In this document: positions 222 through 1,865 of the stretch, in pieces
How positions within the stretch are numbered: position 1 is the first letter of the stretch
Layout of the letters: each line of letters starts with the position of its first letter
Origin: a virus
Taxonomy: Duplodnaviria; Heunggongvirae; Uroviricota; Caudoviricetes
Direction: 5' to 3' (one strand)
DNA length: 5,423 bases
IMG/VR virus record: IMGVR_UViG_2706794691_000011
Notes under the pieces: model-generated
What the model was told of the DNA's origin: nothing
What the model saw: the letters and a program-made list of their open reading frames with translations, nothing else
The model's database searches: none
Translations under genes and position numbers: made by a program

Positions 222-240
222 CATCTGAAAAATAATTCTT
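222..240. repeat. direct repeat copy 1 (CATCTGAAAAATAATTCTT)
   Basis: 19-nt segment matching 376-394 at 17/19 positions, with an identical 13-mer core GAAAAATAATTCT; lies in the divergent intergenic region. Confidence 0.5.
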
Positions 241-375
241 TAAAATACCTGACATGTAATACAGAAAAAACACAAAACCATACCTTAAATAAAAACCTGA
301 TTATCAAGCAGATATGCATGGATAAACTACAAGACGAGATATAAACCACCCTGCATTTAAATAAACAATAAACAA

Positions 376-394
376 CATCAGAAAAATAATTCTG
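376..394. repeat. direct repeat copy 2 (CATCAGAAAAATAATTCTG)
   Basis: Second copy, 154 bp from the first, immediately upstream of the putative promoter of the plus-strand cargo gene. Confidence 0.5.
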
Positions 395-401
395 CTCTAT
401 G

Positions 402-429
402 GTTTACATTCAAAAATATCATTTATACT
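402..429 (+). promoter_or_regulatory. candidate sigma70 promoter for cargo gene A
   Basis: -35-like GTTTACA (402-408) and -10-like TATACT (424-429) with a 15-16 bp spacer, about 40 bp upstream of the ATG at 470. Weak, by eye only. Confidence 0.25.
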
Positions 430-469
430 TTTCAGAACATCACCAGCAAGGCATAAACAAGGAAACTAA

Positions 470-1120
470 ATGAAGTGGATTGTGATTGATACNNNNNNNN
501 NNNNNNNNNNNNNNNNNNNNNNNNNNNNNNNNNNNNNNNNNNNNNNNNNNNNNNNNNNNNNNNNNNNNNNNNNNNNNNNNNNNNNNNNNNNNNNNNNNNN
601 NNNNNNNNNNNNNNNNNNNNNNNNNNNNNNNNNNNNNNNNNNNNNNNNNNNNNNNNNNNNNNNNNNNNNNNNNNNNNNNNNNNNNNNNNNNNNNNNNNNN
701 NNNNNNNNNNNNNNNNNNNNNNNNNNNNNNNNNNNNNNNNNNNNNNNNNNNNNNNNATATAGCACCCTGACTGATACTGTAGTACCTAAGGTTCCAGAAA
801 CTGTGATGTATCCGGNNNNNNNNNNNNNNNNNNNNNNNNNNNNNNNNNNNNNNNNNNNNNNNNNNNNNNNNNNNNNNNNNNNNNNNNNNNNNNNNNNNNN
901 NNNNNNNNNNNNNNNNNNNNNNNNNNNNNNNNNNNNNNNNNNNNNNNNNNNNNNNNNNNNNNNNNNNNNNNNNNNNNNNNNNNNNNNNNNNNNNNNNNNN
1001 NNNNNNNNNNNNNNNNNNNNNNNNNNNNNNNNNNNNNNNNNNNNNNNNNNNNNNNNNNNNNNNNNNNNNNNNNNNNNNNNNNNNNNNNNNNNNNNNNNNN
1101 NNNNNNNNAAGAGCAAATAA
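470..1120 (+). CDS. hypothetical cargo protein A (up to 216 aa, mostly masked); N-terminus MKWIVIDT...
   Basis: ATG at 470 with Shine-Dalgarno AAGGA (459-463) 6 nt upstream. In the readable middle segment 757-815 this is the only open plus frame, and the codons look coding (G-rich first positions). The end at the TAA at 1118-1120 is uncertain because an in-frame stop could lie in the masked parts. Orientation is opposite to the phage late genes. Confidence 0.45.
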   Translation: MKWIVIDXXXXXXXXXXXXXXXXXXXXXXXXXXXXXXXXXXXXXXXXXXXXXXXXXXXXXXXXXXXXXXXXXXXXXXXXXXXXXXXXXXXXXXXXXYSTLTDTVVPKVPETVMYPXXXXXXXXXXXXXXXXXXXXXXXXXXXXXXXXXXXXXXXXXXXXXXXXXXXXXXXXXXXXXXXXXXXXXXXXXXXXXXXXXXXXXXXXXXXXXXXXXXKSK

Positions 1121-1393
1121 TTCTGAATTAGCAACCATGAACTCATCGCAAACCCTCTGTATAGCATCACTATTCAGAATAATAACGTCTCTTCCCGAAA
1201 GACGATCAGGAGTACAGAACAAAACTGTCAAACGGCTGAAGGCCTTTGCTCGTGCTGCATTGACTATATCAATACGCTGCCTAAGGATGAAACACCCCGA
1301 CGCCTCATCAATATTCACTCTACCCACACCATATGAATGATAAATATTTAATGCTGAAAAAACCATTAGACCGTATAACAAACACTCAATCAA
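1109..1393 (-). CDS. hypothetical cargo ORF B, N-terminal part (at least 95 codons readable; 3' end inside masked region)
   Basis: Open minus frame across all 285 readable nt; about one third of codons start with G and nearly half end in T (coding signature in AT-rich DNA), whereas the overlapping plus ORF 1137..1340 has an antisense-like pattern. Start is either TTG at 1393 or ATG at 1366; both have weak ribosome-binding sites. Converges on gene A. Confidence 0.35.
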
Positions 1394-1434
1394 TACTTAA
1401 CAGAACTTTTATTTTTGACAAACATAAAATATTT

Positions 1435-1707
1435 TCAACAATATCCTGAGCCAGGNNNNNNNNNNNNNNNNNNNNNNNNNNNNNNNNNNNNNNNNNNNNN
1501 NNNNNNNNNNNNNNNNNNNNNNNNNNNNNNNNNNNNNNNNNNNNNNNNNNNNNNNNNNNNNNNNNNNNNNNNNNNNNNNNNNNNNNNNNNNNNNNNNNNN
1601 NNNNNNNNNNNNNNNNNNNNNNNNNNNNNNNNNNNNNNNNNNNNNNNNNNNNNNNNNNNNNNNNNNNNNNNNNNNNNNGTGCCTCCCGGTGAATTCAGTA
1701 CCAGCAC
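1435..1707 (-). CDS. possible small ORF C (about 90 aa, GTG start, almost entirely masked)
   Basis: ORF track only; readable ends are 29 nt and 21 nt. Lies between the tRNA terminator and ORF B. Very weak. Confidence 0.15.
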   Translation of the reverse strand: MLVLNSPGGXXXXXXXXXXXXXXXXXXXXXXXXXXXXXXXXXXXXXXXXXXXXXXXXXXXXXXXXXXXXXXXXXXXXXXXXXXXPGSGYC

Positions 1708-1839
1708 CTGAATCCGCGATTATCCCATATACCTACTCGCTGATTGCCCCTCCGCACAGGGGGATTCACCATGCCAGTTTCTTTTAACAAACTCCCCGCA
1801 AAACAGACAACTGTCAACCGTCTGAATTGTGAGACATTT

Positions 1840-1865
1840 AAAAAAAAGGCCCGCAAAAGCGAGCC
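1840..1865 (-). terminator. rho-independent terminator downstream of the tRNA cluster
   Basis: On the minus-strand RNA: GGCUCGC-UUUU-GCGGGCC (7-bp stem with one G-U pair) followed by 8 U. No T-tract on the plus strand, so it is minus-specific. Confidence 0.7.

What the first reader, a model, noticed from the sequence alone, without database searches (positions are those of the whole stretch)
225..1840. AT-rich cargo locus at the Stx-equivalent position, not Stx
The order Q, PR'/tR', methylase, tRNAs (Ile2, Arg, Arg), cargo, lysis-associated gene mirrors Stx-converting phages, where stxAB sits right after these tRNAs. Here the slot holds about 1.6 kb of markedly AT-rich DNA with a plus-strand gene (470-1120) that has its own ribosome-binding site and runs opposite to the late operon, plus a convergent minus ORF (from 1393) and possibly a third small ORF. 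None of the readable translations resemble StxA or StxB. The masks hide most of the coding sequence.
Basis: partly seen in the sequence, partly recalled or inferred. Interest (0 to 1): 0.8.

Follow-up and report, generated by a model that had tools for sequence, protein, structure and literature searches.

The report
Known prophage accessory genes, not new cargo
The AT-rich stretch after the phage tRNA genes holds already-known accessory elements of Shiga-toxin-type prophages (the stress-response gene iraL, the small RNA STnc100 and a small protein gene of unknown function), so it is ordinary rather than a new toxin-like cargo.

Summary
The region lies in the late-operon accessory segment of a decayed, IS-bounded lambdoid prophage of the Shigella sonnei / E. 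coli type. The plus-strand gene at 470 is iraL, a characterised IraM-family RssB anti-adaptor. Its published mRNA 5' end matches window 437-466 exactly. In all relatives it is 336 bp, so the "470-1120" gene comes from reading through N runs.

Window 1659-1803 (minus) is the 5' part of the known prophage sRNA STnc100. The minus ORF from 1393 is PHROG 2873, a small conserved protein of unknown function (dN/dS about 0.3).

In real Stx2 phages the order is tRNAs, stxAB, STnc100, convergent iraM homologue, nanS-p. So iraL and STnc100 live alongside stx. The exact stx site here is the 76-bp gap 1804-1879, which is empty.

Two caveats apply. N-run lengths differ from the true hidden lengths. The order of visible pieces (iraL start, island, block, STnc100) matches no public assembly searched; every piece is 100% identical to one of two paralogous S. 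sonnei-type loci, and every switch lies under a mask. The layout is probably composite, or else a rare recombinant.

The parts
1..75 (+). Right end of an IS3-family insertion sequence. The transposase C-terminus ...AAFREKYHQMAA* occupies 1-39. The IS truncates the DUF1737/nanS-p gene.
   Evidence: The L023 ORF 10501-11316 ends ...FREKYHQMAA. Window 1-492 is 100% identical to S. sonnei loci, and 1-85 recurs elsewhere in the same loci. The same IS end abuts different DNA in type B.
36..224 (-). Remnant of the 5' end of a nanS-p-type esterase gene (DUF1737 domain). It is a 62-aa ORF fused to IS sequence.
   Evidence: Pfam PF08410, E 1.5e-15. PGAP calls it 'DUF1737 domain-containing protein, incomplete' in relatives. 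The exact 62-aa product occurs only in S. sonnei assemblies.
403..469 (+). iraL promoter and 5' UTR. TATACT (-10) lies at 424-429, the transcription start at 437, and the AAGGA ribosome-binding site at 459-463.
   Evidence: The published CFT073 iraL 5'-RACE sequence ACATCACCAGCAAGGCATAAACAAGGAAAC equals window 437-466 exactly. The hexamer assignments are read from the sequence.
470..756 (+). iraL (IraM-family RssB anti-adaptor). Only the first 23 nt (MKWIVIDT) are visible; the rest lies under the N run 493-756. The natural length is 336 bp.
   Evidence: Window 80-492 is 99.5-100% identical to loci annotated 'anti-adapter protein IraM' in 1379 E. coli genomes. The reference product scores 162 bits on NCBIfam NF007393 (cut-off 121). 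It is 97% identical to P0033 (IraL type) and 62% to P0041 (K-12 IraM type), and matches PDB 8twd IraM at E 8.5e-32.
757..815 (.). A 59-bp 'island'. In natural loci it lies immediately 3' of an STnc100 terminator (type B loci). It is not iraL sequence.
   Evidence: It is 100% identical in 347 E. coli records, with no annotation there. In 70 of 70 fetched contexts it has the same left flank and is followed on the right by the STnc100 3' part. It overlaps the STnc100 3' end in L003/L007.
816..1108 (.). N run with unknown content. Relatives would place here the last 22 codons of the PHROG 2873 gene, the DUF3927 gene and/or STnc100 sequence.
   Evidence: The natural island-to-block path is 488-489 bp (L007, L054), against 293 N here. 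The block's left flank is the same DUF3927-to-STnc100 sequence (SNP variants only) in all 36 contexts tabulated; X lies 423-426 bp before the block in 63 of 67 instances.
1109..1393 (-). 5' two-thirds of a small protein gene, PHROG 2873 (92-117 aa, predicted helical hairpin, function unknown). Possible starts are TTG 1393, ATG 1366 or GTG 1318. The 3' end lies under the mask.
   Evidence: phrog_2873, E 3.4e-68. Homologues occur only in E. coli and Shigella, including full-length copies at 56% identity. dN/dS is 0.32 with dS 1.1. Only 21 representatives exist among 1.84 billion proteins, and the core is residues 26-117. AlphaFold pLDDT is 71 with two long helices, and no significant fold match was found.
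1411..1438 (-). Sigma-70-like promoter match (TTGAAA, 16 nt, AAAAAT) upstream of the PHROG 2873 ORF.
   Evidence: Consensus scan only. Four such sites were found in 1-2200, against 3.0 expected by chance, so this is weak.
1659..1803 (-). 5' part of the sRNA STnc100 (RF02076), visible from 1679. The 3' third with the terminator would lie under the N run 1456-1678.
   Evidence: Infernal scores 45.5 bits, E 4e-8 (gathering 47), cut by the mask. The 100%-identical L061 copy scores 123.6 bits. The published STnc_100 qPCR primers match 1681-1700 and 1754-1773 exactly.
1804..1879 (-). The 76-bp gap between tRNA-Arg and STnc100. This is the position where stxAB sits in Stx2 phages, and it is empty here. 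It holds an intrinsic terminator after the tRNAs (1865-1848).
   Evidence: Terminator scan. In phage 1717, stx2cAB lies between the tRNAs and STnc100, 75 nt upstream of STnc100 (PMC12370729). Window 1679-2717 is one contiguous visible stretch, 100% identical to L061.
1880..2129 (-). Three phage tRNA genes: Arg-TCT, Arg-TCG and CAT (Ile2/ileZ type).
   Evidence: ARAGORN; Rfam tRNA at 58-72 bits; annotated argN, argO and ileZ in Stx phages.

Best explanation
The region is the accessory ('moron') segment of the late operon of a decayed, IS-bounded, Stx-phage-like lambdoid prophage of the Shigella sonnei / E. coli type. Its parts are known.

(1) iraL is transcribed from its own sigma-70 promoter (start at 437), convergently to the Q-dependent late operon. 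From the literature, its 111-aa product binds the adaptor RssB and stops it handing sigma-S to ClpXP, which raises RpoS in growing cells. This is lysogenic conversion of the stress response.

(2) STnc100 is a roughly 190-nt prophage sRNA that starts 76 bp downstream of the tRNAs, runs in the late direction, and ends at a hairpin that faces the 3' end of iraL in natural loci. Its targets are not established.

(3) PHROG 2873 is a small protein gene, paired in relatives with a 43-aa DUF3927/TciB-like membrane peptide. In natural loci this pair occupies exactly the stx position, between the tRNAs and STnc100. Its function is unknown. I infer a lysogen- or late-expressed accessory pair.

No stx is present, and the stx site itself (1804-1879) is empty.

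Shown here: the identities, positions and conservation of the parts. Taken from the literature: the IraL mechanism. Inferred: that the masked iraL body resembles its relatives, and any role for PHROG 2873/DUF3927.
For: iraL: the published 5'-RACE sequence is identical to window 437-466. Window 80-492 is 99.5-100% identical to annotated IraM loci in 1379 genomes. The reference product passes NCBIfam NF007393 at 162 bits against a cut-off of 121, is 97% identical to the IraL-type cluster and 62% to the K-12 IraM type, and matches PDB 8twd.

STnc100: plus primer matches.

Synteny with Stx2c phage 1717: tRNAs, stxAB, STnc100, iraM homologue, nanS-p. IraM homologues at 71-73% identity sit next to stx2 in 41 phage records.

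PHROG 2873 shows coding constraint. DUF3927 hits phrog_1470 and Pfam at E 1.7e-27.

The components are common. The query 757-1900, which holds the island, block and STnc100 piece, matches 2750 of 5426 complete E. coli genomes.
Against: Most of iraL, the 3' end of PHROG 2873, any DUF3927 gene and the STnc100 terminator lie under N runs, so their integrity in this window is not shown. The visible 757-815 is not the iraL 3' end. If the masks are roughly true to length (264 N against 313 bp still needed), iraL would be truncated or hybrid here. The order of the visible pieces differs from all 56 block contexts and all 70 island contexts examined.
Confidence: 0.85

Rival explanations
1. The slot as laid out in the window is not a biological arrangement. 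It is a composite of two paralogous prophage remnants that coexist in S. sonnei-type genomes, produced by a chimeric scaffold with N gaps of estimated size or by construction of the window. Type A/A' runs IS, DUF1737', iraL, STnc100, DUF3927, PHROG 2873, tRNAs. Type B runs IS, island, STnc100, tRNAs, methylase, Q.
For: Every visible piece is 100% identical to type A (1-492, 1109-1455) or type B (757-815, 1679-5423), and all three switches lie under N runs. N-run lengths differ from the true lengths by -20 to +11 bp, as gap-size estimates would. No bridging match exists in GTDB representatives, IMG/VR or JGI metagenomes. No complete E. coli genome puts the iraL start near the island or the island and block at the window's spacing. 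No single crossover between references reproduces the hidden lengths. All assemblies carrying the S. sonnei-specific 62-aa junction protein are type A. IMG/VR scaffolds L055 and L075 already string A, A' and B units together. The window order equals the pieces sorted by distance from the shared tRNA anchor: 35, 48, about 263 and about 1176 bp.
Against: In the shared right-hand part the N-run boundaries do not coincide with A'/B differences; only one mismatch occurs in 2.3 kb. So the gaps there are not explained by paralogue bubbles. The sorted-order match is only 1 of 6 possible interleavings. The source sequence itself could not be found, so this stays an inference.
Confidence: 0.55
2. The window is a genuine but rare recombinant of the two locus types. 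The PHROG 2873 (plus or minus DUF3927) cassette lies downstream of STnc100, or between two STnc100 copies, and iraL is truncated or has a new 3' flank.
For: STnc100 occurs in two tandem copies in natural loci (L003, L007), so it offers portable homology. A 10-bp motif, TCACATCTGA, is shared by the iraL 3' flank and the sequence left of the island, giving a possible 334-bp path across mask 1. The natural 488-489-bp path could fill mask 2 if N-run lengths are unreliable. Lambdoid prophages are notoriously mosaic.
Against: No natural path bridges mask 3 at any length. The arrangement is absent from 5426 E. coli genomes, IMG/VR, GTDB representatives and JGI metagenomes, and from all S. sonnei assemblies carrying the same IS junction. 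Three novel junctions that all fall under masks covering a third of the window is improbable.
Confidence: 0.35
3. The masks hide a novel toxin, effector or anti-phage defence gene occupying the stx slot.
For: About half of the slot is masked. It is an AT-rich moron position where Stx and other cargo are known to sit.
Against: The stx site proper (1804-1879) is fully visible and empty. Each N run is under 300 nt, and true lengths elsewhere are within about 20 bp of the N runs, too short for the 1.24-kb stxAB. All mask flanks continue known loci at 100% identity. The slot proteins of relatives hit no PADLOC model and no toxin family in Pfam or NCBIfam.
Confidence: 0.03

Closest known systems
iraL of uropathogenic E. 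coli CFT073 and Shigella (Hryckowian et al. 2014, mBio, PMC4045071)
   Same: The promoter and 5' UTR are the same: the 5'-RACE start sequence is identical to window 437-466. The first 8 codons are the same. The product of loci with identical flanks is 97% identical to the IraL-type cluster. The gene is carried on a lambdoid prophage island.
   Different: In this window 313 of the 336 bp are masked, and the visible 757-815 is not the iraL 3' end. An intact gene is therefore not shown here. The host prophage is IS-truncated.
Late-region accessory segment of Stx2c phages such as 1717 and 2851 (NC_011357)
   Same: The order Q, tRNAs (ileZ, argN, argO type), STnc100, convergent IraM-family gene, nanS-p (DUF1737) is shared, and STnc100 lies about 75 nt from the preceding element.
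   Different: There is no stxAB. The IraM homologue of the Stx phages is only 71-73% identical. A DNA methyltransferase sits between Q and the tRNAs here. nanS-p is cut by an IS, and the lysis genes are absent from the window.
Shigella sonnei Ss046-type IS-bounded prophage remnant ('type A', CP000038) and the 'type B' remnant IMGVR_UViG_2690316284_000005
   Same: Identity is 100% over 1-492, 1109-1455 and 4922-5423 (type A), and over 757-815 and 1679-5423 (type B).
   Different: Neither has the window's order. Type A has STnc100 between iraL and DUF3927, has no methylase, and has a 284-aa Q. Type B has no iraL and no PHROG 2873 block.
STnc100 / PasD prophage sRNA family (Rfam RF02076; Zhu, Shabalina and Storz 2026 preprint)
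   Same: Sequence and structure match. The prophage late-region location, next to esterase and tRNA genes, also matches.
   Different: Only the 5' roughly 125 nt are visible here. No target or function is established for STnc100 itself.

Membership tests
IraM/IraL family of RssB anti-adaptors | The protein matches the curated family model above its cut-off. | tested here: met
   NCBIfam NF007393 scores 162 bits against a cut-off of 121, over residues 1-110. PDB 8twd IraM matches at E 8.5e-32. Both tests used the 111-aa product of loci whose DNA is 100% identical to window 1-492, not the masked window gene itself.
IraM/IraL family of RssB anti-adaptors | IraL branch: at least 95% identity to CFT073 iraL and the conserved iraL promoter and transcription start. 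| tested here: met
   Window 437-466 equals the published 5'-RACE sequence at 30 of 30 positions. The product is 97% identical to P0033 and 62% to K-12-type P0041.
IraM/IraL family of RssB anti-adaptors | An intact ORF of 107-111 codons in this window. | tested here: inconclusive
   Only 23 nt are visible. The 264-nt N run is shorter than the 313 bp still needed, and 757-815 is unrelated to the iraL 3' end. N-run lengths are unreliable.
IraM/IraL family of RssB anti-adaptors | The protein binds RssB and stabilises RpoS. | not testable with these tools
   This has been shown experimentally for CFT073 IraL in PMC4045071, not for this copy.
STnc100 sRNA (Rfam RF02076) | The covariance-model score reaches the gathering threshold. 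| tested here: inconclusive
   The window scores 45.5 bits against a threshold of 47, E 4e-8, because the 3' third is masked. The 100%-identical L061 copy scores 123.6 bits.
STnc100 sRNA (Rfam RF02076) | Location in the lambdoid late region, downstream of the tRNAs/stx and upstream of the esterase gene. | tested here: met
   The copy lies 76 bp downstream of tRNA-Arg. The layout matches phage 1717 and type B loci.
Shiga toxin operon (stxAB) | StxA and StxB coding sequences between the tRNAs and STnc100. | tested here: not met
   The tRNA-to-STnc100 interval is 76 bp of fully visible sequence. stx2cAB occupies 1241 bp at that place in phage 1717.
PHROG 2873 (phage protein family of unknown function) | A profile match over the full family length. 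| tested here: met
   P0003 (97% identical to the S. sonnei-type product, whose first 95 codons are those visible in the window) hits phrog_2873 at E 3.4e-68 over profile positions 1-108.
DUF3927 / YlcG / TciB-like small membrane proteins | A 43-46-aa ORF matching PF13064. | not testable with these tools
   The gene is present in relatives (Pfam E 1.7e-27; phrog_1470). In the window it would lie under the N run 816-1108.
Known anti-phage defence systems (PADLOC) | Any slot protein matches a defence model. | tested here: not met
   There are no hits at E <= 0.01 for IraL, PHROG 2873 (two variants) or DUF3927.

The most novel reading that the evidence does not exclude
The window could be a genuine, so far unsampled recombinant in which the PHROG 2873 (plus or minus DUF3927) cassette lies behind, or between two copies of, STnc100. 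In that case STnc100 copies would serve as portable homology for shuffling cargo at the stx site. Independently of the window's order, the PHROG 2873 + DUF3927 pair is a conserved two-gene cargo under purifying selection. It occupies exactly the stx position in many non-Stx prophages, and its function (for example a membrane-acting exclusion or colicin-tolerance module) is unknown.
Probability: 0.2. Interest if true: 0.35.

Novelty: already known. Interest (0 to 1): 0.12.

Why it matters
It matters little as a discovery. iraL, STnc100, DUF3927 and PHROG 2873 are catalogued, and this neighbourhood is very common in E. coli and Shigella: the iraL upstream region occurs in 1379 of 5426 complete genomes.

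Three points are still useful. First, the analysis clarifies the anatomy of the stx neighbourhood. iraL/iraM and STnc100 flank stx, and the true insertion point is a gap of about 76 bp after the tRNAs. That gap is empty, holds stxAB, or holds the PHROG 2873 + DUF3927 pair. Second, it flags PHROG 2873 as a real but uncharacterised protein that PGAP left unannotated in the E. coli records inspected. Third, it is a caution: ORFs read through N runs, and N-run lengths, are unreliable, and this window's piece order is probably not biological.

Tried and rejected
1. Recovering the exact source. I ran gapped patterns bridging masks 2 and 3 against genome contigs, viral contigs and metagenome contigs. 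A unique 48-mer found nothing in genome contigs but 42 IMG/VR contigs. Exact-protein look-ups with Q (too common), the 80-aa ORF and the 62-aa IS-truncated DUF1737 product all gave type A or other layouts, never the window's.

2. Single-crossover models between any two of the fetched loci. None works within +/-40 bp of the N-run lengths. With lengths relaxed, only masks 1 and 2 can be bridged, never mask 3.

3. The idea that the island is the 3' remnant of an iraM-like gene. tblastn gave only chance hits.

4. The idea that N-run boundaries mark paralogue differences, which would support a de Bruijn scaffold. A' and B are nearly identical there.

5. Hybrid IraL proteins reading into the island. 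None exists among the database variants.

6. The perA-perB-perC lead for PHROG 2873. A 56%-identical homologue does follow an AraC-type gene, but there is no PerC/Pfam hit, and the plasmid homologues sit near fimbrial genes with no clear link.

7. Structure-based function for PHROG 2873. The search returned only generic helical-hairpin matches, best E 0.16.

8. Defence or toxin reading. There are no PADLOC, Pfam or NCBIfam hits.
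Full report
OBSERVATION

The window (5423 bp) carries seven N runs: 493-756, 816-1108, 1456-1678, 2718-2988, 3035-3278, 3304-3547 and 4672-4921.

On the minus strand it encodes, in order:
- an 80-aa ORF (4960-5202);
- RusA;
- a 273-aa Q antiterminator (3774-4595);
- a tR'-like terminator (3693-3674);
- a DNA methyltransferase;
- three tRNAs at 2129-1880.

Then comes the slot under study. Last is a DUF1737 fragment (36-224; Pfam E 1.5e-15), cut by the end of an IS3-family element whose transposase C-terminus occupies 1-39.

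The visible slot DNA is AT-rich: GC 0.38, and 0.29 upstream of position 470, against 0.48-0.54 in the flanks. It is an Stx-phage-like late region with an AT-rich accessory segment after the tRNAs.

WHAT THE PARTS ARE

The gene at 470 is iraL.
- Window 80-492 is 99.5-100% identical to loci annotated 'anti-adapter protein IraM' in 1379 of 5426 complete E. coli genomes, and 100% identical to Shigella sonnei loci.
- In all of them the gene is 336 bp.
- Its 111-aa product scores 162 bits on NCBIfam NF007393, against a cut-off of 121. It matches the solved IraM structure 8twd at E 8.5e-32.
- It is 97% identical to the IraL-type cluster and 62% to the K-12 IraM type.
- The mRNA 5' end mapped by 5' RACE for iraL in CFT073 (PMC4045071) is identical to window 437-466. 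That places the transcription start at 437, with a TATACT -10 at 424-429.
- IraL is an experimentally characterised RssB anti-adaptor that stabilises RpoS in log phase in E. coli and Shigella.

Window 1679-1844 is the 5' part of the prophage sRNA STnc100 (RF02076).
- Full copies score 124-165 bits in unmasked relatives.
- The window itself gives a mask-truncated hit at 1659-1803 on the minus strand: 45.5 bits, E 4e-8.
- The qPCR primers published for STnc_100 match 1681-1700 and 1754-1773 exactly.
- STnc100 is a known relative of PasD (2026 preprint).

The minus-strand ORF in 1109-1393 belongs to PHROG 2873, a family of unknown function (E 3.4e-68).
- It has homologues only in E. coli and Shigella. 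Only 21 representatives exist among 1.84 billion proteins, and the core of about 92 aa probably starts at GTG 1318.
- Against a full-length copy at 56% identity, dN/dS is 0.32 with dS 1.1, third-position changes are in excess, and only the one frame is open. It is therefore a real gene, although PGAP leaves it unannotated in the E. coli records inspected.
- The AlphaFold model is a helical hairpin (pLDDT 71), and it has no informative fold match.
- In relatives the next gene is a 43-aa DUF3927/TciB-like peptide. In the window that position is masked.
- No slot protein hits PADLOC.

RELATION TO STX

In Stx2c phage 1717 the order is:
- tRNAs (2881-3120);
- stx2cAB (3216-4456);
- STnc100 (4531-4742);
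- a convergent IraM homologue (4753-5076);
- nanS-p with its DUF1737 domain.

IraM homologues at 71-73% identity lie next to stx2 in 41 phage records. A published report places STnc100 75 nt downstream of stx2B.

So iraL and STnc100 are regular neighbours of stx, not replacements for it. The exact stx position is the interval between tRNA-Arg and STnc100. In the window this is 1804-1879. It is fully visible, 76 bp long, and holds only a strong terminator for the tRNA transcript (1865-1848).

In many non-Stx prophages (types A, L001, L007) that same interval holds the PHROG 2873 + DUF3927 pair. This was true in all 56 informative contexts.

THE ORDER PROBLEM

Every visible piece is 100% identical to one of two paralogous S. 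sonnei-type prophage remnants.
- Type A (L023 and others, including Ss046): matches 1-492, 1109-1455 and 4922-5423.
- Type B (L061): matches 757-815 and 1679-5423.

The pieces alternate A-B-A-B, and every switch lies under an N run.

In nature the 59-bp island always follows an STnc100 terminator (70 of 70 contexts). The block always lies between tRNA-Arg and the DUF3927 and STnc100 genes. The window instead has tRNA, STnc100, block, island, iraL.

That order was not found in any collection searched:
- 5426 complete E. coli genomes;
- IMG/VR;
- GTDB representatives;
- JGI metagenomes;
- any assembly carrying the S. sonnei-specific IS/DUF1737 junction protein.

N-run lengths are also not true lengths: 271 against 291, 244 against 233, 244 against 262, and 250 against 256. 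No single crossover between references reproduces the hidden lengths. With lengths relaxed, masks 1 and 2 can be bridged, by 334 bp and by 488-489 bp, but mask 3 cannot.

The window order equals the pieces sorted by their distance from the shared tRNA anchor. An interleaving scaffolder would give that order. However, this is only 1 of 6 possible orders, and the N-run boundaries in the shared part do not track A'/B differences.

I conclude that the layout is more likely composite (about 0.55) than a real rare recombinant (about 0.35). Either way the components are the same known elements.

MECHANISM

Shown here: the identities, positions and conservation of iraL, STnc100, PHROG 2873 and the tRNAs, and the empty stx site.

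From the literature: IraL binds RssB and blocks delivery of sigma-S to ClpXP, so a lysogen has raised RpoS during growth.

Inferred:
- iraL is expressed from its own promoter, independently of Q.
- The STnc100 terminator hairpin, which abuts the iraL 3' end in natural loci, insulates the convergent transcripts.
- The PHROG 2873/DUF3927 pair is an accessory module of unknown role.

VERDICT

Interest is low. The residual novelty lies in PHROG 2873/DUF3927 as an uncharacterised alternative cargo at the stx site, and in the unexplained piece order.

Noticed in passing
window 2718-2988, 3035-3278, 3304-3547, 4672-4921: N-run lengths do not equal the real hidden lengths in relatives that are 100% identical: 271 against 291, 244 against 233, 244 against 262, and 250 against 256 bp. 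Reading frames and distances across N runs are therefore unreliable throughout the window.
   Followed up: yes
window 5338-5423 and 1-75: Both ends of the window are IS ends: IS3-family on the left, and on the right a sequence that recurs elsewhere (100% in L044). In S. sonnei the right end adjoins an IS21-family rve/IstB pair. The 5.4-kb window is thus an IS-to-IS prophage remnant with no lysis or structural genes.
   Followed up: partly
window 3774-4595 versus L023 7614-8468: Q is 273 aa here and in type B, but 284 aa in S. sonnei type A. There a deletion removing the methylase region fuses a new C-terminus onto Q and leaves degenerate tRNA copies (87% identity).
   Followed up: partly
L003 4570-4779 and 5057-5247; L007 2570-2779 and 3057-3247: The E. 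coli type strain and others carry two tandem STnc100 copies about 280 bp apart in this slot, with no iraL. These are direct repeats that could drive cassette gain and loss.
   Followed up: partly
L150 164-1261; L151 4489-4764; L152 4489-4764: Divergent PHROG 2873 homologues occur outside prophages. One at 56% identity sits directly downstream of an AraC-family regulator on a Logan contig. Others at 38% identity are 91-aa 'hypothetical proteins' on IncF plasmids near fimbrial or adhesin regulator genes. This hints at a virulence-regulon link.
   Followed up: partly
L055 and L075 (IMG/VR scaffolds): These public scaffolds string type B, A' and A units in tandem and contain N bases. So assemblies of this repeat family are already known to be unreliable or complex.
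   Followed up: no
window 4960-5202 (minus): An 80-aa ORF upstream of RusA has no Pfam family and only insignificant PADLOC hits (E 0.002-0.005). It replaces the usual DUF968 gene found at this position in many relatives.
   Followed up: no
window 1411-1442 (both strands): Promoter-like hexamers occur on both strands between the PHROG 2873 start and mask 3: plus-strand TTGACA, 16 nt, AACAAT (10 of 12 matches) and minus-strand TTGAAA, 16 nt, AAAAAT. The minus one could give the cassette its own promoter. The count does not exceed chance.
   Followed up: no
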